From NCBI GenBank assembly GCA_000004985.1, contig GG738856.1: 64,000 nucleotides of DNA, one strand, 5' to 3'. This DNA comes from Naegleria gruberi. Taxonomy: Eukaryota. How positions within the stretch are numbered: the stretch's first letter is position 1; every line of letters begins with the position of its first letter. The translations under genes were made by a program, and so were the position numbers. Positions 10,466 to 64,000 of this stretch are shown here, piece after piece. The notes under the pieces are model-generated. The model was not told the DNA's origin. It was given only the letters and a program-made list of their open reading frames with translations, and searched no databases.

Positions 10466-10548
10466 TTCTCCTTAATATTGTGATAAATCCTCTGCTGTCA
10501 TTTTACTTCTAATATGTTGCAACTTCCAAAAAATTGCATAATGCTACC

Positions 10549-24055: not shown

Positions 24056-24171
24056 AGAGATTTCGCTATAGAATATATTGTGTAAAACAAAGTTGGAATA
24101 AACAATATAGGAAATGAGTGAAGTTAAGAACATTTGGAGTAATTTATTTTAGTGGATGTGATCCCCCTTAG

Positions 24172-37782: not shown

Positions 37783-37817
37783 TAATTTAACCAATACATG
37801 TGTATAATTGAAAGAAA

Positions 37818-38516
37818 TTAATCAATACACCAACCAACTCCAATGCTCTCTGCAAAATCATAATCATTAACAATATCCAATCCTGCACATTTCATCAATT
37901 CAGTAACGATTTCAAAAAATTCACCTTCCAAAGCAGCATGTAGAGGTGTAATCCTCCTTTCTATATGTCCTTCTTCAGTATTTTCACACGATTGATTCTC
38001 TAAATCAATTGGACCCAAATTAACATCCAAACCAGGTTGCTGAATTAAAAGCTCTACAATTTCCAAATTACCATTCTTACACGCCTGATACAGAGGAGAT
38101 TCTCCTGCATTGATATCAATTGGAAGTGAGGAACATGTCAGAAGAGTTTTGACTACTTCTGTATTATTATTTTTACAAGCAATATATAATGGACTGGTTG
38201 TGGAGTTTCCCTTGTTGATGTCAATTTGAGGATGAGATAATATTTCTAAAATTACATCTATCTGGCCTTTATTTGAAGCAATGTAGAGAGGTGTGCCAGA
38301 AATTGAGCTTTGATTCACGTCAATATTTTGTTGGGATAGCAAATATTTGACAATTTCTAAATTTGAATTTTGACAAGCAAGTGTCAATAAGGTTTCTTGC
38401 TCTTTTGAAAGACTTTTTAATATTTCATCAGACAGGAATGTCATTTGGAGTTTTTCCAAATCACCTTCTTTAATACACGAAACTGCTTGGTCAAAACATA
38501 GTTTGTCATTTGCCAT
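37818..38516 (-). CDS. ankyrin-repeat protein
   Basis: At least 5 ANK repeats (TPLYIASNKGQIDVILEILSHPQIDIN; SPLYIACKNNNTEVVKTLL; SPLYQACKNGNLEIVELLIQQPGLDVN; TPLHAALEGEFFEIVTELM). Confidence 0.8.
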   Translation of the reverse strand: MANDKLCFDQAVSCIKEGDLEKLQMTFLSDEILKSLSKEQETLLTLACQNSNLEIVKYLLSQQNIDVNQSSISGTPLYIASNKGQIDVILEILSHPQIDINKGNSTTSPLYIACKNNNTEVVKTLLTCSSLPIDINAGESPLYQACKNGNLEIVELLIQQPGLDVNLGPIDLENQSCENTEEGHIERRITPLHAALEGEFFEIVTELMKCAGLDIVNDYDFAESIGVGWCID

Positions 38517-38639
38517 TTTTTAAAAAGAATTGAAGCTGTAATTATTTACCACAAGCATCATTGCAAGTCAGATCTCTCTCAATATTCTTGAAAATAAATG
38601 ACATCGGCCTTAGAAACTCAATTATCAACAGGAGTTTAT

Positions 38640-42503: not shown

Positions 42504-42952
42504 NNNNNNNNNNNNNNNNNNNNNNNNNNNNNNNNNNNNNNNNNNNNNNNNNNNNNNNNNNNNNNNNNNNNNNNNNNNNNNNNNNNNNNNNNNNNNNNNN
42601 NNNNNNNNNNNNNNNNNNNNNNNNNNNNNNNNNNNNNNNNNNNNNNNNNNNNNNNNNNNNNNNNNNNNNNNNNNNNNNNNNNNNNNNNNNNNNNNNNNNN
42701 NNNNNNNNNNNNNNNNNNNNNNNNNNNNNNNNNNNNNNNNNNNNNNNNNNNNNNNNNNNNNNNNNNNNNNNNNNNNNNNNNNNNNNNNNNNNNNNNNNNN
42801 NNNNNNNNNNNNNNNNNNNNNNNNNNNNNNNNNNNNNNNNNNNNNNNNNNNNNNNNNNNNNNNNNNNNNNNNNNNNNNNNNNNNNNNNNNNNNNNNNNNN
42901 NNNNNNNNNNNNNNNNNNNNNNNNNNNNNNNNNNNNNNNNNNNNNNNNNNNN
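42504..42952. other. assembly gap (N run)
   Basis: Contiguous N characters. Confidence 0.99.
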
Positions 42953-44444: not shown

Positions 44445-45641
44445 TTATTCAATTATTTCTGAAGATAATACCTTTTCTCTCTCATTCTCCACGCTCACAT
44501 TATTCAATGAAGTACTAAATTTGGATCTATAATGTTTGACAGACTCTGAAATATTCTCATTGCCATTAGAAATATTTAACATATTATCCAAAGAGTTGAC
44601 CAATCTACGAGCCACCTTATCATCAGGATTATTAGTTAAATATCCATTCAAAATATTTAAGGACTTGTTGACCTCATCCAAAGTCAAACTCTCTTGTCCG
44701 AAAATGGTGAATGCACTTTGGAAGTCTTTGAACCTTTGGTTTGCCTTGTGTTGCTCAACTTCATATAACCATTCATCACATTCAACAACATTTTCCTTGA
44801 TGATTTCATGAAGAGATGTCACTTGCTTGCCTTCCAATTCGAATCTATCAACAGGTCTTGTAACAAACAAGGAACTGGCATCTGTAATTGATTGGTCATC
44901 TGCCAATACTTTACAACCAGAATTTTTAGCAAAAAGTCCAATATTCTTTGCATTACAAGTGAGTGGACCTACAATGGAATAGCATCTCAATGAGTTATTA
45001 CCCAAATTTCCAATATTTGCGGCTCCACTAGAAATACCAATTGCATATGAAATGTTCTTTCCTGACTTGCCATGCAAATTATCCAAAACTTTGCAAATTT
45101 TGAGGGCAGATTCCATGGCTGCGATATTTGACTTTTTCTTATTGTCCACAAATGTTAATTGGAATTCTTCGACAGAAACAATTTGTAAATCTGTTACTTG
45201 CATGGTTTTAGCCAGAGTTGACAATCCAGAAGCAATCTTACCAAATAAGGAAGTTATTTCACTTGGGGAGTGAGTCTTACTGAAACCATAGAGTTTCAAA
45301 TTCAATACAGAAACTTCCTTATGCAGTGAAAGGCCCAACTTGAATAATCCTCCTGCATCCAATTTCATACTGTTCTTACTTTGTTTTGAGAAGTTAGAAT
45401 GCATTGAATTTTTGGAGTTTTGCTCTGATGAAGCCAGTGAACCACTTTCATCTCTTCTATCCACTGATGATCTTGCTTTCTTATCTTCCGTTGATGCTTC
45501 CTTATTTCCTCCTTCTTCATTCAATCCCATAGATCTTAATTGATTGAAAACGTTTTCTGGAATGAAAGATTTGAATTCATTGAGCCACTTTACCATTTCG
45601 TGTAGATCAGTATAGATGCTATCCACTTCTCTGAACTTGCT
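44445..45641 (-). CDS. partial CDS (3' part): class III adenylate/guanylate cyclase homology domain, probably catalytically degenerate; the N-terminus is lost in gap 45642..49534
   Basis: ISYAIGISSGAANIGNLGNNSLRCYSIVGPLTCNAKNIG aligns to the cyclase core RIGIHSGPVVAGVIGxxxPxYDIWGNTVNVASRMES. The canonical GDxY/metal Asp region is replaced (VEEFQL) and R is replaced by K in NAK. The ORF is uninterrupted for 1.2 kb with its stop at 44445. Confidence 0.6.
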   Translation of the reverse strand, partial: SKFREVDSIYTDLHEMVKWLNEFKSFIPENVFNQLRSMGLNEEGGNKEASTEDKKARSSVDRRDESGSLASSEQNSKNSMHSNFSKQSKNSMKLDAGGLFKLGLSLHKEVSVLNLKLYGFSKTHSPSEITSLFGKIASGLSTLAKTMQVTDLQIVSVEEFQLTFVDNKKKSNIAAMESALKICKVLDNLHGKSGKNISYAIGISSGAANIGNLGNNSLRCYSIVGPLTCNAKNIGLFAKNSGCKVLADDQSITDASSLFVTRPVDRFELEGKQVTSLHEIIKENVVECDEWLYEVEQHKANQRFKDFQSAFTIFGQESLTLDEVNKSLNILNGYLTNNPDDKVARRLVNSLDNMLNISNGNENISESVKHYRSKFSTSLNNVSVENEREKVLSSEIIE

Positions 45642-48600
45642 NNNNNNNNNNNNNNNNNNNNNNNNNNNNNNNNNNNNNNNNNNNNNNNNNNNNNNNNNNN
45701 NNNNNNNNNNNNNNNNNNNNNNNNNNNNNNNNNNNNNNNNNNNNNNNNNNNNNNNNNNNNNNNNNNNNNNNNNNNNNNNNNNNNNNNNNNNNNNNNNNNN
45801 NNNNNNNNNNNNNNNNNNNNNNNNNNNNNNNNNNNNNNNNNNNNNNNNNNNNNNNNNNNNNNNNNNNNNNNNNNNNNNNNNNNNNNNNNNNNNNNNNNNN
45901 NNNNNNNNNNNNNNNNNNNNNNNNNNNNNNNNNNNNNNNNNNNNNNNNNNNNNNNNNNNNNNNNNNNNNNNNNNNNNNNNNNNNNNNNNNNNNNNNNNNN
46001 NNNNNNNNNNNNNNNNNNNNNNNNNNNNNNNNNNNNNNNNNNNNNNNNNNNNNNNNNNNNNNNNNNNNNNNNNNNNNNNNNNNNNNNNNNNNNNNNNNNN
46101 NNNNNNNNNNNNNNNNNNNNNNNNNNNNNNNNNNNNNNNNNNNNNNNNNNNNNNNNNNNNNNNNNNNNNNNNNNNNNNNNNNNNNNNNNNNNNNNNNNNN
46201 NNNNNNNNNNNNNNNNNNNNNNNNNNNNNNNNNNNNNNNNNNNNNNNNNNNNNNNNNNNNNNNNNNNNNNNNNNNNNNNNNNNNNNNNNNNNNNNNNNNN
46301 NNNNNNNNNNNNNNNNNNNNNNNNNNNNNNNNNNNNNNNNNNNNNNNNNNNNNNNNNNNNNNNNNNNNNNNNNNNNNNNNNNNNNNNNNNNNNNNNNNNN
46401 NNNNNNNNNNNNNNNNNNNNNNNNNNNNNNNNNNNNNNNNNNNNNNNNNNNNNNNNNNNNNNNNNNNNNNNNNNNNNNNNNNNNNNNNNNNNNNNNNNNN
46501 NNNNNNNNNNNNNNNNNNNNNNNNNNNNNNNNNNNNNNNNNNNNNNNNNNNNNNNNNNNNNNNNNNNNNNNNNNNNNNNNNNNNNNNNNNNNNNNNNNNN
46601 NNNNNNNNNNNNNNNNNNNNNNNNNNNNNNNNNNNNNNNNNNNNNNNNNNNNNNNNNNNNNNNNNNNNNNNNNNNNNNNNNNNNNNNNNNNNNNNNNNNN
46701 NNNNNNNNNNNNNNNNNNNNNNNNNNNNNNNNNNNNNNNNNNNNNNNNNNNNNNNNNNNNNNNNNNNNNNNNNNNNNNNNNNNNNNNNNNNNNNNNNNNN
46801 NNNNNNNNNNNNNNNNNNNNNNNNNNNNNNNNNNNNNNNNNNNNNNNNNNNNNNNNNNNNNNNNNNNNNNNNNNNNNNNNNNNNNNNNNNNNNNNNNNNN
46901 NNNNNNNNNNNNNNNNNNNNNNNNNNNNNNNNNNNNNNNNNNNNNNNNNNNNNNNNNNNNNNNNNNNNNNNNNNNNNNNNNNNNNNNNNNNNNNNNNNNN
47001 NNNNNNNNNNNNNNNNNNNNNNNNNNNNNNNNNNNNNNNNNNNNNNNNNNNNNNNNNNNNNNNNNNNNNNNNNNNNNNNNNNNNNNNNNNNNNNNNNNNN
47101 NNNNNNNNNNNNNNNNNNNNNNNNNNNNNNNNNNNNNNNNNNNNNNNNNNNNNNNNNNNNNNNNNNNNNNNNNNNNNNNNNNNNNNNNNNNNNNNNNNNN
47201 NNNNNNNNNNNNNNNNNNNNNNNNNNNNNNNNNNNNNNNNNNNNNNNNNNNNNNNNNNNNNNNNNNNNNNNNNNNNNNNNNNNNNNNNNNNNNNNNNNNN
47301 NNNNNNNNNNNNNNNNNNNNNNNNNNNNNNNNNNNNNNNNNNNNNNNNNNNNNNNNNNNNNNNNNNNNNNNNNNNNNNNNNNNNNNNNNNNNNNNNNNNN
47401 NNNNNNNNNNNNNNNNNNNNNNNNNNNNNNNNNNNNNNNNNNNNNNNNNNNNNNNNNNNNNNNNNNNNNNNNNNNNNNNNNNNNNNNNNNNNNNNNNNNN
47501 NNNNNNNNNNNNNNNNNNNNNNNNNNNNNNNNNNNNNNNNNNNNNNNNNNNNNNNNNNNNNNNNNNNNNNNNNNNNNNNNNNNNNNNNNNNNNNNNNNNN
47601 NNNNNNNNNNNNNNNNNNNNNNNNNNNNNNNNNNNNNNNNNNNNNNNNNNNNNNNNNNNNNNNNNNNNNNNNNNNNNNNNNNNNNNNNNNNNNNNNNNNN
47701 NNNNNNNNNNNNNNNNNNNNNNNNNNNNNNNNNNNNNNNNNNNNNNNNNNNNNNNNNNNNNNNNNNNNNNNNNNNNNNNNNNNNNNNNNNNNNNNNNNNN
47801 NNNNNNNNNNNNNNNNNNNNNNNNNNNNNNNNNNNNNNNNNNNNNNNNNNNNNNNNNNNNNNNNNNNNNNNNNNNNNNNNNNNNNNNNNNNNNNNNNNNN
47901 NNNNNNNNNNNNNNNNNNNNNNNNNNNNNNNNNNNNNNNNNNNNNNNNNNNNNNNNNNNNNNNNNNNNNNNNNNNNNNNNNNNNNNNNNNNNNNNNNNNN
48001 NNNNNNNNNNNNNNNNNNNNNNNNNNNNNNNNNNNNNNNNNNNNNNNNNNNNNNNNNNNNNNNNNNNNNNNNNNNNNNNNNNNNNNNNNNNNNNNNNNNN
48101 NNNNNNNNNNNNNNNNNNNNNNNNNNNNNNNNNNNNNNNNNNNNNNNNNNNNNNNNNNNNNNNNNNNNNNNNNNNNNNNNNNNNNNNNNNNNNNNNNNNN
48201 NNNNNNNNNNNNNNNNNNNNNNNNNNNNNNNNNNNNNNNNNNNNNNNNNNNNNNNNNNNNNNNNNNNNNNNNNNNNNNNNNNNNNNNNNNNNNNNNNNNN
48301 NNNNNNNNNNNNNNNNNNNNNNNNNNNNNNNNNNNNNNNNNNNNNNNNNNNNNNNNNNNNNNNNNNNNNNNNNNNNNNNNNNNNNNNNNNNNNNNNNNNN
48401 NNNNNNNNNNNNNNNNNNNNNNNNNNNNNNNNNNNNNNNNNNNNNNNNNNNNNNNNNNNNNNNNNNNNNNNNNNNNNNNNNNNNNNNNNNNNNNNNNNNN
48501 NNNNNNNNNNNNNNNNNNNNNNNNNNNNNNNNNNNNNNNNNNNNNNNNNNNNNNNNNNNNNNNNNNNNNNNNNNNNNNNNNNNNNNNNNNNNNNNNNNNN

Positions 48601-49534
48601 NNNNNNNNNNNNNNNNNNNNNNNNNNNNNNNNNNNNNNNNNNNNNNNNNNNNNNNNNNNNNNNNNNNNNNNNNNNNNNNNNNNNNNNNNNNNNNNNNNNN
48701 NNNNNNNNNNNNNNNNNNNNNNNNNNNNNNNNNNNNNNNNNNNNNNNNNNNNNNNNNNNNNNNNNNNNNNNNNNNNNNNNNNNNNNNNNNNNNNNNNNNN
48801 NNNNNNNNNNNNNNNNNNNNNNNNNNNNNNNNNNNNNNNNNNNNNNNNNNNNNNNNNNNNNNNNNNNNNNNNNNNNNNNNNNNNNNNNNNNNNNNNNNNN
48901 NNNNNNNNNNNNNNNNNNNNNNNNNNNNNNNNNNNNNNNNNNNNNNNNNNNNNNNNNNNNNNNNNNNNNNNNNNNNNNNNNNNNNNNNNNNNNNNNNNNN
49001 NNNNNNNNNNNNNNNNNNNNNNNNNNNNNNNNNNNNNNNNNNNNNNNNNNNNNNNNNNNNNNNNNNNNNNNNNNNNNNNNNNNNNNNNNNNNNNNNNNNN
49101 NNNNNNNNNNNNNNNNNNNNNNNNNNNNNNNNNNNNNNNNNNNNNNNNNNNNNNNNNNNNNNNNNNNNNNNNNNNNNNNNNNNNNNNNNNNNNNNNNNNN
49201 NNNNNNNNNNNNNNNNNNNNNNNNNNNNNNNNNNNNNNNNNNNNNNNNNNNNNNNNNNNNNNNNNNNNNNNNNNNNNNNNNNNNNNNNNNNNNNNNNNNN
49301 NNNNNNNNNNNNNNNNNNNNNNNNNNNNNNNNNNNNNNNNNNNNNNNNNNNNNNNNNNNNNNNNNNNNNNNNNNNNNNNNNNNNNNNNNNNNNNNNNNNN
49401 NNNNNNNNNNNNNNNNNNNNNNNNNNNNNNNNNNNNNNNNNNNNNNNNNNNNNNNNNNNNNNNNNNNNNNNNNNNNNNNNNNNNNNNNNNNNNNNNNNNN
49501 NNNNNNNNNNNNNNNNNNNNNNNNNNNNNNNNNN
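45642..49534. other. assembly gap (N run, 3.9 kb)
   Basis: Contiguous N characters. Confidence 0.99.
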
Positions 49535-51436
49535 TGTTTTCCATCTGTGGAATAACTTTCACTTGCATCCAATAGAATATTTTCACAACTTGAATATGTT
49601 GTTTTTGAAGAAATTACAATTGTTGGGCGAATTGGATTTTCAGCATTTCCAATTTTGAATGATTGATAATCCTTTCCTAATTTGTTTCTATTAAACACAT
49701 TTCTATTCAACAAAATTTCTTGATCAACTTGAATAGAATGATCAGTTCCCAATTCAATAATAAAATCATTGGATGTCTTATTAGAATATCTACAAACTAC
49801 ATTAGAACCAAATGAGGAAATACTTGAAGAATCTAATAAATTGTTACAATCAACATTTAAGGATGTGAAATGATTTGGAGAGGTCATTTTGAAAAGTAAT
49901 CCATTTCCTTCATTATTGAAATGTACATTGGACATTTGAGTCATGCAATCTTCTCCATAAAATCCATCGTTGCAAGTATTACAATTAGTTCCATTCCAAT
50001 AACCGTTAGTTTCGTCTTGGAAACAAGTACAGAAACCATAGCCATCACATGTACCATGTGAATTGCATTTCAATGTAGCATTACATTTTTCAATAACTGT
50101 ACAATTAATTCCAGAGTATGGAATTTTACACTTGTCACATGTTTTTCCAACAAAGTGACCATCAATGTCATTATCAAAACATGAACAGTTATTTGGAGCA
50201 TTACATTTACCAACTCCATTGCAAACTTTCTTTGAATTCGATGAAATTCCATAGCAGATTGGATACTGACATATTGGCCCTTCGTAACCTTCCTCACAAA
50301 AACATCCAACAGTTGACATGTTGAATTTACATATACCATGTTGAGAACAAACTTTTGGATCTTTTTGTGGTAACCACATATCAACTCCTGCCTTACATAA
50401 AATCGTTTCACATTGTGGACCTATTGCTCTTCCACTTTCGGATTCCAAACAAGTGCATTGATTGGGACCTGTACATTTTCCTTGACCATTCGTGCAAACT
50501 CTAGAGTCATTATTGGATTTAAAACCAAAGCATGTATGAGAGGAACAAGTTTCTCCATCATATCCACCAAAACATTTGCATGTGTCCATGGTTGTGCATT
50601 GGCCATGGGAGGAACAAACTGATGAATTGAAAGATGGAATTCCAAAACAAGAATGGGAATCACATTTAGCCCCAAACCATTTAGGATTACACAAACAAAC
50701 ATCAGGGGAGAGGCATTTACCATGACCAGCACATACATTTGAATAGTTTGCTGGTAATCCAAAACACTTTGGAATTTCACAGAATTGTCCTGTCCAATGT
50801 GGATTGCATGAACACACATCTGTAGATACACAATCACCATTACCATTATTACAAACGTTTTGCACATCTTGTGAACTAGTTCCATTACACGAATGAACTG
50901 AACAATCAGCTCCAAACCAGCCCTTATTACAACGACAAGTGTCAGCATTAATACATTGACCATGACTTGAACAAACTGAAATATCACTGGAATTCACTGC
51001 AAAACATTTAGGAATTTCACACAATTGACCTGTCCATGTTTCATTACATAAACACAAATCTGTTCCAATGCACTGACCTCTTCCTCCATTACAAACATTT
51101 TGTAAATCTTGAGAGCTTGTTCCATTACATGAATGAATTGAACAATCAGCTCCAAACCATCCACTATTACAAGAGCATTTATCAGAGCTTATGCAATCTC
51201 CATGACCAGCACACACTTTTTTAGCAGTTGAAGCTAATCCGAAACATGTTGGAATTTCACAGAACTGGCCTGTCCAACCAGATTTACAATCACACTTATC
51301 CATTTGAATACATTCTCCATTACCCCCAGTGCACACGTGTTTTACATCTTGTGAGATTGTTCCATTACAGGAGTGAATATTACATAATGGACCAAACCAA
51401 CCTGTATTACATGGCAAGTATTAATATCAGTACAAT
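49535..51436 (-). CDS. partial CDS: tandem tenascin/laminin-type EGF-like Cys-rich repeats followed by a non-repeat segment; both ends run into gaps
   Basis: Ten or more units of CxxGWFGxxCxxHSCNGTSSQDxxNVCNGGxGxCxxxDxCxCNxxWTGQxCEIPKCFG. The repeats are also very similar at the DNA level (e.g. 50860..50940 vs 51100..51180). The C-terminal visible part (NVHFNNEGNG...SCENILLDASESYSTDGK) is non-repetitive. Confidence 0.75.
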
Positions 51437-54400
51437 ANNNNNNNNNNNNNNNNNNNNNNNNNNNNNNNNNNNNNNNNNNNNNNNNNNNNNNNNNNNNNNN
51501 NNNNNNNNNNNNNNNNNNNNNNNNNNNNNNNNNNNNNNNNNNNNNNNNNNNNNNNNNNNNNNNNNNNNNNNNNNNNNNNNNNNNNNNNNNNNNNNNNNNN
51601 NNNNNNNNNNNNNNNNNNNNNNNNNNNNNNNNNNNNNNNNNNNNNNNNNNNNNNNNNNNNNNNNNNNNNNNNNNNNNNNNNNNNNNNNNNNNNNNNNNNN
51701 NNNNNNNNNNNNNNNNNNNNNNNNNNNNNNNNNNNNNNNNNNNNNNNNNNNNNNNNNNNNNNNNNNNNNNNNNNNNNNNNNNNNNNNNNNNNNNNNNNNN
51801 NNNNNNNNNNNNNNNNNNNNNNNNNNNNNNNNNNNNNNNNNNNNNNNNNNNNNNNNNNNNNNNNNNNNNNNNNNNNNNNNNNNNNNNNNNNNNNNNNNNN
51901 NNNNNNNNNNNNNNNNNNNNNNNNNNNNNNNNNNNNNNNNNNNNNNNNNNNNNNNNNNNNNNNNNNNNNNNNNNNNNNNNNNNNNNNNNNNNNNNNNNNN
52001 NNNNNNNNNNNNNNNNNNNNNNNNNNNNNNNNNNNNNNNNNNNNNNNNNNNNNNNNNNNNNNNNNNNNNNNNNNNNNNNNNNNNNNNNNNNNNNNNNNNN
52101 NNNNNNNNNNNNNNNNNNNNNNNNNNNNNNNNNNNNNNNNNNNNNNNNNNNNNNNNNNNNNNNNNNNNNNNNNNNNNNNNNNNNNNNNNNNNNNNNNNNN
52201 NNNNNNNNNNNNNNNNNNNNNNNNNNNNNNNNNNNNNNNNNNNNNNNNNNNNNNNNNNNNNNNNNNNNNNNNNNNNNNNNNNNNNNNNNNNNNNNNNNNN
52301 NNNNNNNNNNNNNNNNNNNNNNNNNNNNNNNNNNNNNNNNNNNNNNNNNNNNNNNNNNNNNNNNNNNNNNNNNNNNNNNNNNNNNNNNNNNNNNNNNNNN
52401 NNNNNNNNNNNNNNNNNNNNNNNNNNNNNNNNNNNNNNNNNNNNNNNNNNNNNNNNNNNNNNNNNNNNNNNNNNNNNNNNNNNNNNNNNNNNNNNNNNNN
52501 NNNNNNNNNNNNNNNNNNNNNNNNNNNNNNNNNNNNNNNNNNNNNNNNNNNNNNNNNNNNNNNNNNNNNNNNNNNNNNNNNNNNNNNNNNNNNNNNNNNN
52601 NNNNNNNNNNNNNNNNNNNNNNNNNNNNNNNNNNNNNNNNNNNNNNNNNNNNNNNNNNNNNNNNNNNNNNNNNNNNNNNNNNNNNNNNNNNNNNNNNNNN
52701 NNNNNNNNNNNNNNNNNNNNNNNNNNNNNNNNNNNNNNNNNNNNNNNNNNNNNNNNNNNNNNNNNNNNNNNNNNNNNNNNNNNNNNNNNNNNNNNNNNNN
52801 NNNNNNNNNNNNNNNNNNNNNNNNNNNNNNNNNNNNNNNNNNNNNNNNNNNNNNNNNNNNNNNNNNNNNNNNNNNNNNNNNNNNNNNNNNNNNNNNNNNN
52901 NNNNNNNNNNNNNNNNNNNNNNNNNNNNNNNNNNNNNNNNNNNNNNNNNNNNNNNNNNNNNNNNNNNNNNNNNNNNNNNNNNNNNNNNNNNNNNNNNNNN
53001 NNNNNNNNNNNNNNNNNNNNNNNNNNNNNNNNNNNNNNNNNNNNNNNNNNNNNNNNNNNNNNNNNNNNNNNNNNNNNNNNNNNNNNNNNNNNNNNNNNNN
53101 NNNNNNNNNNNNNNNNNNNNNNNNNNNNNNNNNNNNNNNNNNNNNNNNNNNNNNNNNNNNNNNNNNNNNNNNNNNNNNNNNNNNNNNNNNNNNNNNNNNN
53201 NNNNNNNNNNNNNNNNNNNNNNNNNNNNNNNNNNNNNNNNNNNNNNNNNNNNNNNNNNNNNNNNNNNNNNNNNNNNNNNNNNNNNNNNNNNNNNNNNNNN
53301 NNNNNNNNNNNNNNNNNNNNNNNNNNNNNNNNNNNNNNNNNNNNNNNNNNNNNNNNNNNNNNNNNNNNNNNNNNNNNNNNNNNNNNNNNNNNNNNNNNNN
53401 NNNNNNNNNNNNNNNNNNNNNNNNNNNNNNNNNNNNNNNNNNNNNNNNNNNNNNNNNNNNNNNNNNNNNNNNNNNNNNNNNNNNNNNNNNNNNNNNNNNN
53501 NNNNNNNNNNNNNNNNNNNNNNNNNNNNNNNNNNNNNNNNNNNNNNNNNNNNNNNNNNNNNNNNNNNNNNNNNNNNNNNNNNNNNNNNNNNNNNNNNNNN
53601 NNNNNNNNNNNNNNNNNNNNNNNNNNNNNNNNNNNNNNNNNNNNNNNNNNNNNNNNNNNNNNNNNNNNNNNNNNNNNNNNNNNNNNNNNNNNNNNNNNNN
53701 NNNNNNNNNNNNNNNNNNNNNNNNNNNNNNNNNNNNNNNNNNNNNNNNNNNNNNNNNNNNNNNNNNNNNNNNNNNNNNNNNNNNNNNNNNNNNNNNNNNN
53801 NNNNNNNNNNNNNNNNNNNNNNNNNNNNNNNNNNNNNNNNNNNNNNNNNNNNNNNNNNNNNNNNNNNNNNNNNNNNNNNNNNNNNNNNNNNNNNNNNNNN
53901 NNNNNNNNNNNNNNNNNNNNNNNNNNNNNNNNNNNNNNNNNNNNNNNNNNNNNNNNNNNNNNNNNNNNNNNNNNNNNNNNNNNNNNNNNNNNNNNNNNNN
54001 NNNNNNNNNNNNNNNNNNNNNNNNNNNNNNNNNNNNNNNNNNNNNNNNNNNNNNNNNNNNNNNNNNNNNNNNNNNNNNNNNNNNNNNNNNNNNNNNNNNN
54101 NNNNNNNNNNNNNNNNNNNNNNNNNNNNNNNNNNNNNNNNNNNNNNNNNNNNNNNNNNNNNNNNNNNNNNNNNNNNNNNNNNNNNNNNNNNNNNNNNNNN
54201 NNNNNNNNNNNNNNNNNNNNNNNNNNNNNNNNNNNNNNNNNNNNNNNNNNNNNNNNNNNNNNNNNNNNNNNNNNNNNNNNNNNNNNNNNNNNNNNNNNNN
54301 NNNNNNNNNNNNNNNNNNNNNNNNNNNNNNNNNNNNNNNNNNNNNNNNNNNNNNNNNNNNNNNNNNNNNNNNNNNNNNNNNNNNNNNNNNNNNNNNNNNN

Positions 54401-57400
54401 NNNNNNNNNNNNNNNNNNNNNNNNNNNNNNNNNNNNNNNNNNNNNNNNNNNNNNNNNNNNNNNNNNNNNNNNNNNNNNNNNNNNNNNNNNNNNNNNNNNN
54501 NNNNNNNNNNNNNNNNNNNNNNNNNNNNNNNNNNNNNNNNNNNNNNNNNNNNNNNNNNNNNNNNNNNNNNNNNNNNNNNNNNNNNNNNNNNNNNNNNNNN
54601 NNNNNNNNNNNNNNNNNNNNNNNNNNNNNNNNNNNNNNNNNNNNNNNNNNNNNNNNNNNNNNNNNNNNNNNNNNNNNNNNNNNNNNNNNNNNNNNNNNNN
54701 NNNNNNNNNNNNNNNNNNNNNNNNNNNNNNNNNNNNNNNNNNNNNNNNNNNNNNNNNNNNNNNNNNNNNNNNNNNNNNNNNNNNNNNNNNNNNNNNNNNN
54801 NNNNNNNNNNNNNNNNNNNNNNNNNNNNNNNNNNNNNNNNNNNNNNNNNNNNNNNNNNNNNNNNNNNNNNNNNNNNNNNNNNNNNNNNNNNNNNNNNNNN
54901 NNNNNNNNNNNNNNNNNNNNNNNNNNNNNNNNNNNNNNNNNNNNNNNNNNNNNNNNNNNNNNNNNNNNNNNNNNNNNNNNNNNNNNNNNNNNNNNNNNNN
55001 NNNNNNNNNNNNNNNNNNNNNNNNNNNNNNNNNNNNNNNNNNNNNNNNNNNNNNNNNNNNNNNNNNNNNNNNNNNNNNNNNNNNNNNNNNNNNNNNNNNN
55101 NNNNNNNNNNNNNNNNNNNNNNNNNNNNNNNNNNNNNNNNNNNNNNNNNNNNNNNNNNNNNNNNNNNNNNNNNNNNNNNNNNNNNNNNNNNNNNNNNNNN
55201 NNNNNNNNNNNNNNNNNNNNNNNNNNNNNNNNNNNNNNNNNNNNNNNNNNNNNNNNNNNNNNNNNNNNNNNNNNNNNNNNNNNNNNNNNNNNNNNNNNNN
55301 NNNNNNNNNNNNNNNNNNNNNNNNNNNNNNNNNNNNNNNNNNNNNNNNNNNNNNNNNNNNNNNNNNNNNNNNNNNNNNNNNNNNNNNNNNNNNNNNNNNN
55401 NNNNNNNNNNNNNNNNNNNNNNNNNNNNNNNNNNNNNNNNNNNNNNNNNNNNNNNNNNNNNNNNNNNNNNNNNNNNNNNNNNNNNNNNNNNNNNNNNNNN
55501 NNNNNNNNNNNNNNNNNNNNNNNNNNNNNNNNNNNNNNNNNNNNNNNNNNNNNNNNNNNNNNNNNNNNNNNNNNNNNNNNNNNNNNNNNNNNNNNNNNNN
55601 NNNNNNNNNNNNNNNNNNNNNNNNNNNNNNNNNNNNNNNNNNNNNNNNNNNNNNNNNNNNNNNNNNNNNNNNNNNNNNNNNNNNNNNNNNNNNNNNNNNN
55701 NNNNNNNNNNNNNNNNNNNNNNNNNNNNNNNNNNNNNNNNNNNNNNNNNNNNNNNNNNNNNNNNNNNNNNNNNNNNNNNNNNNNNNNNNNNNNNNNNNNN
55801 NNNNNNNNNNNNNNNNNNNNNNNNNNNNNNNNNNNNNNNNNNNNNNNNNNNNNNNNNNNNNNNNNNNNNNNNNNNNNNNNNNNNNNNNNNNNNNNNNNNN
55901 NNNNNNNNNNNNNNNNNNNNNNNNNNNNNNNNNNNNNNNNNNNNNNNNNNNNNNNNNNNNNNNNNNNNNNNNNNNNNNNNNNNNNNNNNNNNNNNNNNNN
56001 NNNNNNNNNNNNNNNNNNNNNNNNNNNNNNNNNNNNNNNNNNNNNNNNNNNNNNNNNNNNNNNNNNNNNNNNNNNNNNNNNNNNNNNNNNNNNNNNNNNN
56101 NNNNNNNNNNNNNNNNNNNNNNNNNNNNNNNNNNNNNNNNNNNNNNNNNNNNNNNNNNNNNNNNNNNNNNNNNNNNNNNNNNNNNNNNNNNNNNNNNNNN
56201 NNNNNNNNNNNNNNNNNNNNNNNNNNNNNNNNNNNNNNNNNNNNNNNNNNNNNNNNNNNNNNNNNNNNNNNNNNNNNNNNNNNNNNNNNNNNNNNNNNNN
56301 NNNNNNNNNNNNNNNNNNNNNNNNNNNNNNNNNNNNNNNNNNNNNNNNNNNNNNNNNNNNNNNNNNNNNNNNNNNNNNNNNNNNNNNNNNNNNNNNNNNN
56401 NNNNNNNNNNNNNNNNNNNNNNNNNNNNNNNNNNNNNNNNNNNNNNNNNNNNNNNNNNNNNNNNNNNNNNNNNNNNNNNNNNNNNNNNNNNNNNNNNNNN
56501 NNNNNNNNNNNNNNNNNNNNNNNNNNNNNNNNNNNNNNNNNNNNNNNNNNNNNNNNNNNNNNNNNNNNNNNNNNNNNNNNNNNNNNNNNNNNNNNNNNNN
56601 NNNNNNNNNNNNNNNNNNNNNNNNNNNNNNNNNNNNNNNNNNNNNNNNNNNNNNNNNNNNNNNNNNNNNNNNNNNNNNNNNNNNNNNNNNNNNNNNNNNN
56701 NNNNNNNNNNNNNNNNNNNNNNNNNNNNNNNNNNNNNNNNNNNNNNNNNNNNNNNNNNNNNNNNNNNNNNNNNNNNNNNNNNNNNNNNNNNNNNNNNNNN
56801 NNNNNNNNNNNNNNNNNNNNNNNNNNNNNNNNNNNNNNNNNNNNNNNNNNNNNNNNNNNNNNNNNNNNNNNNNNNNNNNNNNNNNNNNNNNNNNNNNNNN
56901 NNNNNNNNNNNNNNNNNNNNNNNNNNNNNNNNNNNNNNNNNNNNNNNNNNNNNNNNNNNNNNNNNNNNNNNNNNNNNNNNNNNNNNNNNNNNNNNNNNNN
57001 NNNNNNNNNNNNNNNNNNNNNNNNNNNNNNNNNNNNNNNNNNNNNNNNNNNNNNNNNNNNNNNNNNNNNNNNNNNNNNNNNNNNNNNNNNNNNNNNNNNN
57101 NNNNNNNNNNNNNNNNNNNNNNNNNNNNNNNNNNNNNNNNNNNNNNNNNNNNNNNNNNNNNNNNNNNNNNNNNNNNNNNNNNNNNNNNNNNNNNNNNNNN
57201 NNNNNNNNNNNNNNNNNNNNNNNNNNNNNNNNNNNNNNNNNNNNNNNNNNNNNNNNNNNNNNNNNNNNNNNNNNNNNNNNNNNNNNNNNNNNNNNNNNNN
57301 NNNNNNNNNNNNNNNNNNNNNNNNNNNNNNNNNNNNNNNNNNNNNNNNNNNNNNNNNNNNNNNNNNNNNNNNNNNNNNNNNNNNNNNNNNNNNNNNNNNN

Positions 57401-60400
57401 NNNNNNNNNNNNNNNNNNNNNNNNNNNNNNNNNNNNNNNNNNNNNNNNNNNNNNNNNNNNNNNNNNNNNNNNNNNNNNNNNNNNNNNNNNNNNNNNNNNN
57501 NNNNNNNNNNNNNNNNNNNNNNNNNNNNNNNNNNNNNNNNNNNNNNNNNNNNNNNNNNNNNNNNNNNNNNNNNNNNNNNNNNNNNNNNNNNNNNNNNNNN
57601 NNNNNNNNNNNNNNNNNNNNNNNNNNNNNNNNNNNNNNNNNNNNNNNNNNNNNNNNNNNNNNNNNNNNNNNNNNNNNNNNNNNNNNNNNNNNNNNNNNNN
57701 NNNNNNNNNNNNNNNNNNNNNNNNNNNNNNNNNNNNNNNNNNNNNNNNNNNNNNNNNNNNNNNNNNNNNNNNNNNNNNNNNNNNNNNNNNNNNNNNNNNN
57801 NNNNNNNNNNNNNNNNNNNNNNNNNNNNNNNNNNNNNNNNNNNNNNNNNNNNNNNNNNNNNNNNNNNNNNNNNNNNNNNNNNNNNNNNNNNNNNNNNNNN
57901 NNNNNNNNNNNNNNNNNNNNNNNNNNNNNNNNNNNNNNNNNNNNNNNNNNNNNNNNNNNNNNNNNNNNNNNNNNNNNNNNNNNNNNNNNNNNNNNNNNNN
58001 NNNNNNNNNNNNNNNNNNNNNNNNNNNNNNNNNNNNNNNNNNNNNNNNNNNNNNNNNNNNNNNNNNNNNNNNNNNNNNNNNNNNNNNNNNNNNNNNNNNN
58101 NNNNNNNNNNNNNNNNNNNNNNNNNNNNNNNNNNNNNNNNNNNNNNNNNNNNNNNNNNNNNNNNNNNNNNNNNNNNNNNNNNNNNNNNNNNNNNNNNNNN
58201 NNNNNNNNNNNNNNNNNNNNNNNNNNNNNNNNNNNNNNNNNNNNNNNNNNNNNNNNNNNNNNNNNNNNNNNNNNNNNNNNNNNNNNNNNNNNNNNNNNNN
58301 NNNNNNNNNNNNNNNNNNNNNNNNNNNNNNNNNNNNNNNNNNNNNNNNNNNNNNNNNNNNNNNNNNNNNNNNNNNNNNNNNNNNNNNNNNNNNNNNNNNN
58401 NNNNNNNNNNNNNNNNNNNNNNNNNNNNNNNNNNNNNNNNNNNNNNNNNNNNNNNNNNNNNNNNNNNNNNNNNNNNNNNNNNNNNNNNNNNNNNNNNNNN
58501 NNNNNNNNNNNNNNNNNNNNNNNNNNNNNNNNNNNNNNNNNNNNNNNNNNNNNNNNNNNNNNNNNNNNNNNNNNNNNNNNNNNNNNNNNNNNNNNNNNNN
58601 NNNNNNNNNNNNNNNNNNNNNNNNNNNNNNNNNNNNNNNNNNNNNNNNNNNNNNNNNNNNNNNNNNNNNNNNNNNNNNNNNNNNNNNNNNNNNNNNNNNN
58701 NNNNNNNNNNNNNNNNNNNNNNNNNNNNNNNNNNNNNNNNNNNNNNNNNNNNNNNNNNNNNNNNNNNNNNNNNNNNNNNNNNNNNNNNNNNNNNNNNNNN
58801 NNNNNNNNNNNNNNNNNNNNNNNNNNNNNNNNNNNNNNNNNNNNNNNNNNNNNNNNNNNNNNNNNNNNNNNNNNNNNNNNNNNNNNNNNNNNNNNNNNNN
58901 NNNNNNNNNNNNNNNNNNNNNNNNNNNNNNNNNNNNNNNNNNNNNNNNNNNNNNNNNNNNNNNNNNNNNNNNNNNNNNNNNNNNNNNNNNNNNNNNNNNN
59001 NNNNNNNNNNNNNNNNNNNNNNNNNNNNNNNNNNNNNNNNNNNNNNNNNNNNNNNNNNNNNNNNNNNNNNNNNNNNNNNNNNNNNNNNNNNNNNNNNNNN
59101 NNNNNNNNNNNNNNNNNNNNNNNNNNNNNNNNNNNNNNNNNNNNNNNNNNNNNNNNNNNNNNNNNNNNNNNNNNNNNNNNNNNNNNNNNNNNNNNNNNNN
59201 NNNNNNNNNNNNNNNNNNNNNNNNNNNNNNNNNNNNNNNNNNNNNNNNNNNNNNNNNNNNNNNNNNNNNNNNNNNNNNNNNNNNNNNNNNNNNNNNNNNN
59301 NNNNNNNNNNNNNNNNNNNNNNNNNNNNNNNNNNNNNNNNNNNNNNNNNNNNNNNNNNNNNNNNNNNNNNNNNNNNNNNNNNNNNNNNNNNNNNNNNNNN
59401 NNNNNNNNNNNNNNNNNNNNNNNNNNNNNNNNNNNNNNNNNNNNNNNNNNNNNNNNNNNNNNNNNNNNNNNNNNNNNNNNNNNNNNNNNNNNNNNNNNNN
59501 NNNNNNNNNNNNNNNNNNNNNNNNNNNNNNNNNNNNNNNNNNNNNNNNNNNNNNNNNNNNNNNNNNNNNNNNNNNNNNNNNNNNNNNNNNNNNNNNNNNN
59601 NNNNNNNNNNNNNNNNNNNNNNNNNNNNNNNNNNNNNNNNNNNNNNNNNNNNNNNNNNNNNNNNNNNNNNNNNNNNNNNNNNNNNNNNNNNNNNNNNNNN
59701 NNNNNNNNNNNNNNNNNNNNNNNNNNNNNNNNNNNNNNNNNNNNNNNNNNNNNNNNNNNNNNNNNNNNNNNNNNNNNNNNNNNNNNNNNNNNNNNNNNNN
59801 NNNNNNNNNNNNNNNNNNNNNNNNNNNNNNNNNNNNNNNNNNNNNNNNNNNNNNNNNNNNNNNNNNNNNNNNNNNNNNNNNNNNNNNNNNNNNNNNNNNN
59901 NNNNNNNNNNNNNNNNNNNNNNNNNNNNNNNNNNNNNNNNNNNNNNNNNNNNNNNNNNNNNNNNNNNNNNNNNNNNNNNNNNNNNNNNNNNNNNNNNNNN
60001 NNNNNNNNNNNNNNNNNNNNNNNNNNNNNNNNNNNNNNNNNNNNNNNNNNNNNNNNNNNNNNNNNNNNNNNNNNNNNNNNNNNNNNNNNNNNNNNNNNNN
60101 NNNNNNNNNNNNNNNNNNNNNNNNNNNNNNNNNNNNNNNNNNNNNNNNNNNNNNNNNNNNNNNNNNNNNNNNNNNNNNNNNNNNNNNNNNNNNNNNNNNN
60201 NNNNNNNNNNNNNNNNNNNNNNNNNNNNNNNNNNNNNNNNNNNNNNNNNNNNNNNNNNNNNNNNNNNNNNNNNNNNNNNNNNNNNNNNNNNNNNNNNNNN
60301 NNNNNNNNNNNNNNNNNNNNNNNNNNNNNNNNNNNNNNNNNNNNNNNNNNNNNNNNNNNNNNNNNNNNNNNNNNNNNNNNNNNNNNNNNNNNNNNNNNNN

Positions 60401-63089
60401 NNNNNNNNNNNNNNNNNNNNNNNNNNNNNNNNNNNNNNNNNNNNNNNNNNNNNNNNNNNNNNNNNNNNNNNNNNNNNNNNNNNNNNNNNNNNNNNNNNNN
60501 NNNNNNNNNNNNNNNNNNNNNNNNNNNNNNNNNNNNNNNNNNNNNNNNNNNNNNNNNNNNNNNNNNNNNNNNNNNNNNNNNNNNNNNNNNNNNNNNNNNN
60601 NNNNNNNNNNNNNNNNNNNNNNNNNNNNNNNNNNNNNNNNNNNNNNNNNNNNNNNNNNNNNNNNNNNNNNNNNNNNNNNNNNNNNNNNNNNNNNNNNNNN
60701 NNNNNNNNNNNNNNNNNNNNNNNNNNNNNNNNNNNNNNNNNNNNNNNNNNNNNNNNNNNNNNNNNNNNNNNNNNNNNNNNNNNNNNNNNNNNNNNNNNNN
60801 NNNNNNNNNNNNNNNNNNNNNNNNNNNNNNNNNNNNNNNNNNNNNNNNNNNNNNNNNNNNNNNNNNNNNNNNNNNNNNNNNNNNNNNNNNNNNNNNNNNN
60901 NNNNNNNNNNNNNNNNNNNNNNNNNNNNNNNNNNNNNNNNNNNNNNNNNNNNNNNNNNNNNNNNNNNNNNNNNNNNNNNNNNNNNNNNNNNNNNNNNNNN
61001 NNNNNNNNNNNNNNNNNNNNNNNNNNNNNNNNNNNNNNNNNNNNNNNNNNNNNNNNNNNNNNNNNNNNNNNNNNNNNNNNNNNNNNNNNNNNNNNNNNNN
61101 NNNNNNNNNNNNNNNNNNNNNNNNNNNNNNNNNNNNNNNNNNNNNNNNNNNNNNNNNNNNNNNNNNNNNNNNNNNNNNNNNNNNNNNNNNNNNNNNNNNN
61201 NNNNNNNNNNNNNNNNNNNNNNNNNNNNNNNNNNNNNNNNNNNNNNNNNNNNNNNNNNNNNNNNNNNNNNNNNNNNNNNNNNNNNNNNNNNNNNNNNNNN
61301 NNNNNNNNNNNNNNNNNNNNNNNNNNNNNNNNNNNNNNNNNNNNNNNNNNNNNNNNNNNNNNNNNNNNNNNNNNNNNNNNNNNNNNNNNNNNNNNNNNNN
61401 NNNNNNNNNNNNNNNNNNNNNNNNNNNNNNNNNNNNNNNNNNNNNNNNNNNNNNNNNNNNNNNNNNNNNNNNNNNNNNNNNNNNNNNNNNNNNNNNNNNN
61501 NNNNNNNNNNNNNNNNNNNNNNNNNNNNNNNNNNNNNNNNNNNNNNNNNNNNNNNNNNNNNNNNNNNNNNNNNNNNNNNNNNNNNNNNNNNNNNNNNNNN
61601 NNNNNNNNNNNNNNNNNNNNNNNNNNNNNNNNNNNNNNNNNNNNNNNNNNNNNNNNNNNNNNNNNNNNNNNNNNNNNNNNNNNNNNNNNNNNNNNNNNNN
61701 NNNNNNNNNNNNNNNNNNNNNNNNNNNNNNNNNNNNNNNNNNNNNNNNNNNNNNNNNNNNNNNNNNNNNNNNNNNNNNNNNNNNNNNNNNNNNNNNNNNN
61801 NNNNNNNNNNNNNNNNNNNNNNNNNNNNNNNNNNNNNNNNNNNNNNNNNNNNNNNNNNNNNNNNNNNNNNNNNNNNNNNNNNNNNNNNNNNNNNNNNNNN
61901 NNNNNNNNNNNNNNNNNNNNNNNNNNNNNNNNNNNNNNNNNNNNNNNNNNNNNNNNNNNNNNNNNNNNNNNNNNNNNNNNNNNNNNNNNNNNNNNNNNNN
62001 NNNNNNNNNNNNNNNNNNNNNNNNNNNNNNNNNNNNNNNNNNNNNNNNNNNNNNNNNNNNNNNNNNNNNNNNNNNNNNNNNNNNNNNNNNNNNNNNNNNN
62101 NNNNNNNNNNNNNNNNNNNNNNNNNNNNNNNNNNNNNNNNNNNNNNNNNNNNNNNNNNNNNNNNNNNNNNNNNNNNNNNNNNNNNNNNNNNNNNNNNNNN
62201 NNNNNNNNNNNNNNNNNNNNNNNNNNNNNNNNNNNNNNNNNNNNNNNNNNNNNNNNNNNNNNNNNNNNNNNNNNNNNNNNNNNNNNNNNNNNNNNNNNNN
62301 NNNNNNNNNNNNNNNNNNNNNNNNNNNNNNNNNNNNNNNNNNNNNNNNNNNNNNNNNNNNNNNNNNNNNNNNNNNNNNNNNNNNNNNNNNNNNNNNNNNN
62401 NNNNNNNNNNNNNNNNNNNNNNNNNNNNNNNNNNNNNNNNNNNNNNNNNNNNNNNNNNNNNNNNNNNNNNNNNNNNNNNNNNNNNNNNNNNNNNNNNNNN
62501 NNNNNNNNNNNNNNNNNNNNNNNNNNNNNNNNNNNNNNNNNNNNNNNNNNNNNNNNNNNNNNNNNNNNNNNNNNNNNNNNNNNNNNNNNNNNNNNNNNNN
62601 NNNNNNNNNNNNNNNNNNNNNNNNNNNNNNNNNNNNNNNNNNNNNNNNNNNNNNNNNNNNNNNNNNNNNNNNNNNNNNNNNNNNNNNNNNNNNNNNNNNN
62701 NNNNNNNNNNNNNNNNNNNNNNNNNNNNNNNNNNNNNNNNNNNNNNNNNNNNNNNNNNNNNNNNNNNNNNNNNNNNNNNNNNNNNNNNNNNNNNNNNNNN
62801 NNNNNNNNNNNNNNNNNNNNNNNNNNNNNNNNNNNNNNNNNNNNNNNNNNNNNNNNNNNNNNNNNNNNNNNNNNNNNNNNNNNNNNNNNNNNNNNNNNNN
62901 NNNNNNNNNNNNNNNNNNNNNNNNNNNNNNNNNNNNNNNNNNNNNNNNNNNNNNNNNNNNNNNNNNNNNNNNNNNNNNNNNNNNNNNNNNNNNNNNNNNN
63001 NNNNNNNNNNNNNNNNNNNNNNNNNNNNNNNNNNNNNNNNNNNNNNNNNNNNNNNNNNNNNNNNNNNNNNNNNNNNNNNNNNNNNNNNN
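51437..63089. other. assembly gap (N run, 11.65 kb)
   Basis: Contiguous N characters. Confidence 0.99.
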
Positions 63090-63551
63090 GTATCAAGTGG
63101 ATCAGCCATGTACCATGAAATGATATGGATGATCTTCAAAATCATATAGATATATTTAATTATCATGTATAGATGTATTGGAAGTGAATTGAAGTGGTAT
63201 AGATTTCTATCTTCAATGTTAGTATAGGTCAGTTGACAAGTTGAATAGTTAATTTCCTTAGATGATTCCACAGTACCTGAAATTGATACATGTTGTTACT
63301 AACATGATTTATAAGGTGATGTATTGATTTGAATTGATTTAGAAATGTATTCATTGACATTCTTATTGTCTAATCCATTATATGAAGTTCAATTGTGTAA
63401 GTCATTATAATGATGTAATATTATGTTATTATATGATTATATATTCAATTTGGAGTATATTGATATATAATATATTGATTTATAATGAGTATTTATTGAG
63501 ATAATTAATTAAGATGAATAAAAGTAAAAATGTTGGGTCTGACCTTAGTCG

Positions 63552-64000
63552 TGGGTTTGGGTTTGGGTTTGGGTTTGGGTTTGGGTTTGGGTTTGGGTTT
63601 GGGTTTGGGTTTGGGTTTGGGTTTGGGTTTGGATTTGGGTTTGGGTTTGGGTTTGGGTTTGGGTTTGGGTTTGGGTTTGGGTTTGGGTTTGGGTTTGGGT
63701 TTGGGTTTGGGTTTGGGTTTGGGTTTGGGTTTGGGTTTGGGTTTGGGTTTGGGTTTGGGTTTGGGTTTGGGTTTGGGTTTGGGTTTGGGTTTGGGTTTGG
63801 GTTTGGGTTTGGGTTTGGGTTTGGGTTTGGGTTTGGGTTTGGGTTTGGGTTTGGGTTTGGGTTTGGGTTTGGGTTTGGGTTTGGGTTTGGGTTTGGGTTT
63901 GGGTTTGGGTTTGGGTTTGGGTTTGGGTTTGGGTTTGGGCCTGGGTTTGGGTTTGGGTTTGGGTTTGGGCCTGGGTTTGGGTTTGGGTTTGGGTTTGGGA
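63552..64000 (+). repeat. telomeric repeat array (TTTGGG)n, G-rich strand 5'->3' toward the window end, about 75 units with rare variants (GGATTT, GGGCCT)
   Basis: A perfect hexamer tandem array starts after GACCTTAGTCGT and continues to the last base. Orientation and composition fit a right-end telomere. It is preceded by 460 bp of AT-rich non-coding subtelomeric sequence (63090..63551). Confidence 0.85.

What the first reader, a model, noticed from the sequence alone, without database searches (positions are those of the whole stretch)
63090..64000. Chromosome terminus with (TTTGGG)n telomere
About 450 bp of perfect TTTGGG hexamers with a few GGATTT/GGGCCT variants sit at the 3' end, with the G-rich strand pointing outward. 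The upstream 460 bp is AT-rich with short direct repeats (gattgatttgaattgattt, atatattgattta). A TTTGGG telomere is uncommon among well-studied eukaryotes and constrains the taxonomic origin. The last mapped genes (the EGF/cyclase locus) lie 12-19 kb from the end, with an 11.6-kb unsequenced subtelomeric gap.
Basis: seen in the sequence. Interest (0 to 1): 0.5.

Follow-up and report, generated by a model that had tools for sequence, protein, structure and literature searches.

The report
Naegleria gruberi TTTGGG telomere, already reported

Summary
Positions 63552-64000 are 74 head-to-tail hexamers: 71 perfect GGGTTT, one GGATTT and two GGGCCT. The G-rich strand runs 5'->3' into the window end. 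No TTTGGG dimer occurs anywhere else in the window. The 463 bp before the array are unique, non-coding and 25.5% GC. An 11,652-N gap separates them from the rest of the scaffold.

Three window ORFs are letter-for-letter identical to Naegleria gruberi proteins XP_002679771, XP_002679773 and XP_002679774, all on one 602,266-bp scaffold. Fulneckova et al. 2013 (PMC3622300) already named TTTGGG as the candidate N. gruberi telomere from an in-silico survey of genome assemblies, and said experimental confirmation was still needed.

The finding is therefore a correct rediscovery. Best explanation: a telomerase-made duplex telomere tract whose assembled length is probably limited by read length.

New side evidence came from a metagenome scan. 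All 13 TTTGGG arrays in contig set JAESGV01 are terminal and point outward. That set is probably a heterolobosean: it carries DYW-type PPR genes, and its best named protein hit is Acrasis kona.

Not shown: physical terminality, TERT or telomerase RNA, and the mate-pair link across the gap.

Novelty: already known. Interest: low.

The parts
63552..64000 (+). Telomeric repeat tract (TTTGGG)n, G-rich strand 5'->3' towards the end. It holds 74 full units, 71 of them perfect, and its assembled length is 448 bp.
63631..63636 (+). Variant unit GGATTT (unit 14 of the tract).
63937..63972 (+). Two variant units GGGCCT (63937-63942 and 63967-63972), 30 bp apart, near the distal end of the 911-bp contig. 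They may be real variants or base-calling errors near a read end; this is undecided. The final base, A at 64000, also breaks the repeat.
   Evidence: The read-end explanation is inference.
63090..63551 (.). Unique subtelomeric (telomere-adjacent) sequence. It is 25.5% GC and non-coding, with no match to the rest of the window or to any fetched locus. The junction reads ...GACCTTAGTCG|TGGGTTTGGG.
51438..63089 (.). Scaffolding gap of 11,652 N between the terminal 911-bp contig and the rest of the scaffold. The subtelomere here is unsequenced.
44445..51417 (-). Context only: the nearest sequenced genes. These are a weak cyclase-domain ORF (44445-45641) and a teneurin-type EGF-repeat ORF (49535-51417), separated by a 3.9-kb gap.

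Best explanation
This is the double-stranded telomere repeat tract at one end of a Naegleria gruberi (strain NEG-M assembly) nuclear scaffold.

Shown here: a 448-bp, 96%-perfect (TTTGGG)n tract with the G-rich strand running 5'->3' to the end of the sequence. It meets unique AT-rich non-coding DNA at a sharp junction and has no internal copies in the window.

Inferred from general telomere biology: telomerase adds the repeats to the 3' end, copying a telomerase-RNA template of about 1.5 repeats (of the form 5'-...CCCAAACCC...-3'). The C strand is then filled in, and the tract with its G overhang is capped by telomere-binding proteins. The assembled length is a lower bound set by read length. 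The contig holding it is only 911 bp long, roughly the length of a single long capillary (Sanger) read.
For: - Searches give the array anatomy, its orientation, and the absence of dimers elsewhere in the window.
- One search shows the flank is unique, non-coding and has the lowest GC in the window.
- One search shows three window ORFs are exact matches to N. gruberi XP_002679771.1, XP_002679773.1 and XP_002679774.1, all on one 602,266-bp contig.
- (PMC3622300): an independent in-silico survey of 143 genome assemblies judged position and orientation of repeat stretches. It reports TTTGGG as the candidate telomere of N. gruberi and includes it in its summary figure, from which genomes judged inconclusive were left out.
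- among 120 metagenome contigs holding (TTTGGG)6, arrays lying within 30 bp of a contig end point outward 26 times and inward 8 times (one-sided binomial p = 0.0015). All 13 contigs of set JAESGV01 are terminal and outward (2^-13, about 1.2e-4).
- The JAESGV01 ends share subtelomeric repeat families. They carry PPR-E-DYW genes. Their P4-ATPase fragment has a heterolobosean, Acrasis kona, as best named relative. A second, probably heterolobosean, genome therefore appears to end in the same repeat.
- About 87 kb of N. lovaniensis and 21.6 kb of A. kona DNA hold no TTTGGG dimer.
Against: - Nothing here shows physical terminality. There is no Bal31 or terminal-restriction-fragment data, and no other end of the same assembly could be read.
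- Whether the window end is the scaffold end could not be verified.
- TERT and a telomerase RNA were not examined. Rfam found only three tRNAs in the window.
- The terminal contig is joined to the scaffold only across an 11.65-kb gap.
- The variant units GGGCCT lie distally. Distal repeats are normally the most uniform, so these point to sequencing error or to something not understood.
- The one N. lovaniensis contig end that was reached, 19 kb from the orthologue of the window's cytokinin dehydrogenase gene, is an assembly break inside a gene and not a telomere. Conservation within the genus is therefore untested.
Confidence: 0.88

Rival explanations
1. It is a real N. gruberi telomere but it is attached to the wrong scaffold, or at the wrong distance. 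The 911-bp contig would belong to another chromosome end and would have been joined here by a false or ambiguous mate-pair link across the 11.65-kb gap.
For: The contig is only 911 bp, about one long read, and is separated from everything else by 11,652 N. Subtelomeres are often repeated between chromosome ends, as seen among the JAESGV01 ends, and that invites mis-joins.
Against: The 463-bp flank is unique within everything fetched. No evidence of a conflict is available. Assemblers need consistent mate pairs to place and orient a contig.
Confidence: 0.08
2. It is an interstitial telomere-like microsatellite. The assembly simply stopped there because reads could not cross it, so it does not mark a chromosome end.
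For: Short internal (TTTGGG)n arrays are common in environmental contigs: 91 of the 125 arrays classified are internal, 24-133 bp long. Eight arrays at contig ends point inward, showing that assemblies do break at such repeats.
Against: At 448 bp this array is more than three times longer than any internal array seen. It points outward. No internal copy exists in the window. The published survey placed N. gruberi among genomes with a convincing pattern of terminal, correctly oriented repeats.
Confidence: 0.03
3. It is contamination or an artefact. For example, a read from a ciliate with Paramecium-type telomeres may have been swept into the scaffold.
For: Paramecium telomeres contain TTTGGG units (PMC5855555 and PMC13085455). 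Some environmental ends mix TTGGGG with TTTGGG (L009, L082, L083, L088, L104).
Against: There is no TTGGGG unit among the 74, whereas Paramecium tracts are mixtures. The assembler linked the contig to N. gruberi genes. Established knowledge, not tested here: strain NEG-M is grown axenically.
Confidence: 0.01

Closest known systems
Candidate TTTGGG telomere of Naegleria gruberi (Fulneckova et al. 2013, Genome Biol Evol 5:468, PMC3622300)
   Same: Same species and same repeat unit. It is probably from the same public assembly (the only N. gruberi genome that paper cites) and rests on the same kind of evidence, namely terminal position and orientation in the assembly.
   Different: Nothing of substance differs. 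This window is one concrete instance, with junction, tract length and variants described. The paper itself says experimental confirmation of terminal position is still required.
Paramecium macronuclear and micronuclear telomeres, TTGGG(G/T)
   Same: They contain TTTGGG hexamers made by telomerase, with the G strand pointing outward.
   Different: [quoted passage not shown] This arises from misincorporation or stuttering at one template position (PMC13085455, PMC5855555). Here 0 of 74 units are TTGGGG. The lineages are unrelated (ciliate versus heterolobosean).
TTAGGG ('human-type') telomere, the likely ancestral eukaryotic repeat, also found in trypanosomatids
   Same: It is a hexamer with a three-G block, has the same orientation rule, and is presumably made the same way by telomerase.
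   Different: One base differs per unit (A to T). PMC6759080, citing Fulneckova et al. [quoted passage not shown] TTTGGG in a heterolobosean is therefore a lineage-specific change of template.
Terminal TTTGGG arrays of metagenome contig set JAESGV01
   Same: All 13 contigs end in TTTGGG with the G strand outward, next to AT-rich subtelomeres.
   Different: It is a different organism, with no DNA or protein similarity to the window. Its arrays are only 46-138 bp, limited by short-read assembly. Its taxonomic assignment is indirect: DYW-type PPR genes and a 42%-identical Acrasis kona best named hit.

Membership tests
Telomerase-type eukaryotic telomere repeat (TxAyGz minisatellite) | Tandem array of a short (5-8 nt) T/G-rich unit with a G block | tested here: met
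   There are 74 units of TTTGGG at 97% matches.
Telomerase-type eukaryotic telomere repeat (TxAyGz minisatellite) | G-rich strand runs 5'->3' towards the chromosome end | tested here: met
   TTTGGG is on the + strand and runs into the last base of the window. This holds relative to the sequence end as given.
Telomerase-type eukaryotic telomere repeat (TxAyGz minisatellite) | Located at the physical end of the chromosome | tested here: inconclusive
   The array is flush with the window end, and the last base breaks the repeat. The scaffold coordinates could not be retrieved, and no Bal31 or terminal-fragment data exist.
Telomerase-type eukaryotic telomere repeat (TxAyGz minisatellite) | Same repeat at the other chromosome ends, as CCCAAA at left ends | not testable with these tools
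   The N. gruberi assembly is not in any searchable collection. The published survey, which judged position and orientation of repeat stretches, names TTTGGG for N. gruberi and shows it in its summary figure (PMC3622300). Its table S5 is not held.
Telomerase-type eukaryotic telomere repeat (TxAyGz minisatellite) | Rare or absent at internal positions | tested here: met
   There is no TTTGGG or CCCAAA dimer in the other 47.8 kb of sequenced window. This covers only about 0.1% of the genome.
Telomerase-type eukaryotic telomere repeat (TxAyGz minisatellite) | Genome encodes TERT and a telomerase RNA with a complementary template | not tested
   There was no route to the N. gruberi proteome or genome. 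In the window, Rfam finds only 3 tRNAs. The one CAAACCCAAA 10-mer (99-108) lies inside a coding ORF.
Paramecium-type variable telomere TTGGG(G/T) | Tract is a mixture of TTGGGG and TTTGGG units | tested here: not met
   None of the 74 units is TTGGGG. The definition comes from PMC5855555 and PMC13085455.

The most novel reading that the evidence does not exclude
TTTGGG may be the telomere repeat of Heterolobosea more widely, not a peculiarity of N. gruberi. An uncultured genome in metagenome set JAESGV01 ends in the same repeat at 13 of 13 contig ends. It has DYW-type PPR genes, and its best named protein relative is Acrasis kona at 42% identity. If this is right, the change from TTAGGG to TTTGGG happened early in the group. 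The still-undescribed heterolobosean telomerase RNA could then be found by looking for a CCCAAA-type template.
Probability: 0.45. Interest if true: 0.3.

Novelty: already known. Interest (0 to 1): 0.12.

Why it matters
It matters little beyond bookkeeping. The finding confirms that this scaffold reaches a chromosome end, and it identifies the source organism.

Three modest points of value:
- It gives a concrete junction sequence (GACCTTAGTCG|TGGGTTTGGG) that could anchor a terminal-fragment or long-read test of a telomere that, as far as the searchable literature shows, has not been confirmed experimentally.
- It shows that the subtelomere of this end is essentially unsequenced, with an 11.65-kb gap.
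- The side observation of a second, probably heterolobosean, genome with the same terminal repeat hints that the repeat is older than the genus. That would help a search for the unknown heterolobosean telomerase RNA.

Tried and rejected
1. My first guess was a dictyostelid genome (34% GC, poly-Asn runs, EGF repeats). Exact protein matches to N. gruberi rejected it.
2. Retrieving the scaffold coordinates of the window failed. Three N. gruberi proteins are not in the gene-position index.
3. I looked for the same junction elsewhere. The 24-mer GACCTTAGTCGTGGGTTTGGGTTT has 0 matches in metagenome contigs.
4. I tried to test conservation in N. lovaniensis.
   - I walked to the start of contig PYSW02000068.1. 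That contig carries the orthologues of the window's cytokinin dehydrogenase and lactamase-B genes.
   - The contig start is an assembly break inside an ABC-transporter gene, not a telomere.
   - The contig's other end, and an Acrasis kona contig end, were 14.6 kb and 4.6 kb out of reach.
   - A related JGI contig, L127, has no array.
5. I looked for a telomerase RNA in the window.
   - Rfam gives only tRNAs.
   - Template-like 9-mers occur 4 times against 1.6 expected.
   - The only 10-mer is inside a coding ORF.
6. A genetic-code test (standard versus ciliate) on the environmental ends was uninformative, because AT-rich DNA opens all frames when only TGA is a stop.
7. Literature searches for Naegleria, N. 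fowleri or Acrasis telomeres and telomerase found nothing beyond Fulneckova et al. 2013. One broad multi-term search was wasted.
8. The subtelomeric 'direct repeats' were considered as a possible feature. I set them aside as ordinary for 25% GC DNA.

Full report
**The observation.** The last 1.6 kb of the window was read directly. After an N run that ends at 63089 come 463 bp of AT-rich sequence. From 63552 to the last base there is an almost perfect hexamer array.
- Tandem Repeats Finder reports 63552-63999, period 6, 74.7 copies, 97% matches, no indels, score 861.
- Parsed in register from 63553, there are 71 GGGTTT, one GGATTT (63631), two GGGCCT (63937 and 63967) and a final partial unit GGGA.
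- The + strand is the G-rich strand, so it runs 5'->3' into the end of the sequence. This is the orientation of every telomerase-maintained telomere.
- No TTTGGG or CCCAAA dimer occurs anywhere else in the window. Single hexamers occur 14 and 21 times, against a rough composition-based expectation of about 8 per strand (my own arithmetic, not a tool result).
- The N runs are 11129-11330, 42504-42952, 45642-49534 and 51438-63089. The last is 11,652 bases.

**The flank.** Positions 63090-63552 are 25.5% GC. That is below all 99 N-free 460-bp bins of the window (mean 34.3%, minimum 27.0%). The longest open frame is 68 codons, and blastn finds nothing significant in the rest of the window. They are no more than AT-rich DNA gives. 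One quoted string is wrong in its first base. The junction is sharp...GACCTTAGTCG followed by TGGGTTTGGG.

**The organism.**
- The window is 34.4% GC.
- An exact-sequence look-up of ten ORF translations found three letter-for-letter identical to Naegleria gruberi proteins: XP_002679771.1 (window 27650-29452), XP_002679773.1 (36136-37779) and XP_002679774.1 (43042-44331). All three lie on one contig of 602,266 bp.
- The cytokinin-dehydrogenase-like ORF at 38640-40541 has its best named relative in N. lovaniensis, at 56% identity.
- The window is therefore part of a scaffold of the N. gruberi genome assembly.
- Whether the window end is the scaffold end could not be checked, because N. gruberi genes are not in the gene-position index. 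An array flush with the last base, ending in a base that breaks the repeat, fits a scaffold end.

**What is already known.** Fulneckova et al. 2013 (PMC3622300) searched 143 genome assemblies for stretches of telomere-type repeats and judged them by position and orientation. [quoted passage not shown] They add that experimental tests are still needed to confirm terminal position. Their supplementary table is not held. Further searches on Naegleria, N. fowleri or Acrasis telomeres and telomerase found nothing more. The N. fowleri Nanopore paper does not mention telomeres at all.

**Independent evidence obtained here.**
- The junction 24-mer has no match in metagenome contigs.
- Of the 125 arrays classified in those contigs, 91 are internal and short (24-133 bp), 26 lie within 30 bp of a contig end with the G strand outward, and 8 lie at an end pointing inward. 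The outward excess gives a one-sided binomial p of 0.0015.
- All 13 contigs of one WGS set, JAESGV01, are terminal and outward.
- Those ends share subtelomeric repeat families. For example, L078, L102 and L120 are 77-92% identical over 1-1.8 kb next to the array. They therefore come from one genome or close relatives.
- One of them, L084, has a Ty3/gypsy-like pol ORF abutting the array, followed by two PPR-E-DYW genes.
- A P4-ATPase fragment on L007 has Acrasis kona, a heterolobosean, as its best named relative at 42% identity.
- From my own knowledge, DYW-type PPR proteins outside plants are known from Naegleria and a few other protists.
- Together this suggests, but does not prove, that a second heterolobosean genome ends in TTTGGG.
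- Other environmental ends mix TTGGGG with TTTGGG, as Paramecium does (PMC5855555, PMC13085455). The N. gruberi tract has no TTGGGG unit, so it is not of that type.

**Conservation within the genus.** This could not be tested. The N. lovaniensis contig carrying the orthologues of the window's cytokinin dehydrogenase and lactamase-B genes starts 19 kb beyond the cytokinin dehydrogenase gene, at an assembly break inside an ABC-transporter gene. The other end of that contig, and an Acrasis kona contig end, were out of reach. None of the roughly 87 kb of N. lovaniensis or 21.6 kb of A. kona DNA fetched contains a TTTGGG dimer.

**Mechanism.**
- Shown: the tract, its orientation, its position at the end of the sequence, the unique junction, and the absence of internal copies.
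- Inferred from general telomere biology: synthesis by telomerase on an RNA template of about 1.5 repeats (CCCAAACCC-like), C-strand fill-in, a G overhang, and protein capping.
- TERT and the telomerase RNA were not examined.
- In the window, Rfam finds only three tRNAs: Pro at 209-280, Ser at 10385-10465 and Asn at 24162-24234.
- The only template-like 10-mer, CAAACCCAAA at 99-108, lies in the 3' end of a coding ORF.
- The assembled length of 448 bp is a lower bound. The whole terminal contig is 911 bp, about one long Sanger read.
- This may also explain why the two GGGCCT variants and the odd last base sit at the distal end of the contig, where read quality falls. That is inference. Real variant repeats would more usually lie at the proximal end.

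**Rivals.**
- A real telomere placed on the wrong scaffold or at the wrong distance remains possible, because the contig is held only across an 11.65-kb gap.
- An interstitial array at an assembly break is unlikely. The tract is more than three times longer than any internal array seen, it points outward, and the published survey, which judged position and orientation, named TTTGGG as the candidate telomere of this genome.
- Ciliate contamination is unlikely, because there are no TTGGGG units.

**Verdict.** The novelty class is 'already known' and interest is low. The remaining open points are experimental: Bal31 or terminal-fragment analysis, long reads across the gap, a TRAP assay, and identification of TERT and the telomerase RNA. 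There is also the modest comparative question of whether TTTGGG is shared across Heterolobosea.

Noticed in passing
window 38640-40541 (-): An intact 633-aa cytokinin-dehydrogenase-like ORF (FAD_binding_4 plus Cytokin-bind domains) has no N. gruberi entry in the protein collection. The only hits are a 100%-identical metagenome copy and N. lovaniensis C9374_013193 at 56% identity. It is probably a gene missed by the N. gruberi annotation.
   Followed up: partly
L001 (ENA ERZ929261, contig k127_139851) versus window 37235-41395: This metagenome contig is 98.75% identical to the window over 4.2 kb, with 27 mismatches and 6 gap openings. A second N. gruberi-like strain is present in an environmental sample.
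   Followed up: partly
window 25553-27160 (-) and 27650-29455 (+): These are a CoA-transferase family III ORF and an AtuA-family (acyclic terpene utilisation) ORF lying side by side on opposite strands, about 35 kb from the chromosome end. From my own knowledge these families are typically bacterial, so the pair is a possible lateral-transfer candidate.
   Followed up: no
window 44445-45641 (-) and 49535-51417 (-): A weak adenylate/guanylate cyclase domain (E = 3e-4, just below Pfam's cut-off) and teneurin-type EGF repeats flank the 3.9-kb gap, on the same strand. They may be one receptor-type cyclase gene. The 240-bp tandem repeat at 50755-51276 lies within the EGF-repeat ORF and probably corresponds to its repeated units.
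   Followed up: no
L084 (JAESGV010000876.1) 1-11509: In an environmental, probably heterolobosean, contig a Ty3/gypsy-like pol ORF (1254 codons) directly abuts the CCCAAA telomere array. It is followed by two PPR-E-DYW (RNA-editing type) genes.
   Followed up: partly
L064 (LUMJ01000369.1) 5-64: A 16-kb metagenome contig ends in a CCCAAA array in outward orientation. By eye, from my own reading and not a tool result, its ORFs look like housekeeping genes such as an aminoacyl-tRNA synthetase. The organism was not identified.
   Followed up: no
L060 (Ga0116174_10070073) 1865-1984: A 120-bp CCCAAA array sits at the 3' end of a 27.8%-GC contig, which is the inward (wrong) orientation for a telomere. 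It is one of 8 such cases and shows that short-read assemblies also break at non-terminal copies of this repeat.
   Followed up: no
window 63937-63972 and 64000: Two identical GGGCCT variants lie 30 bp apart, and a final A breaks the repeat, all at the distal end of the tract. It is undecided whether these are read-end base-calling errors or real variant repeats.
   Followed up: no
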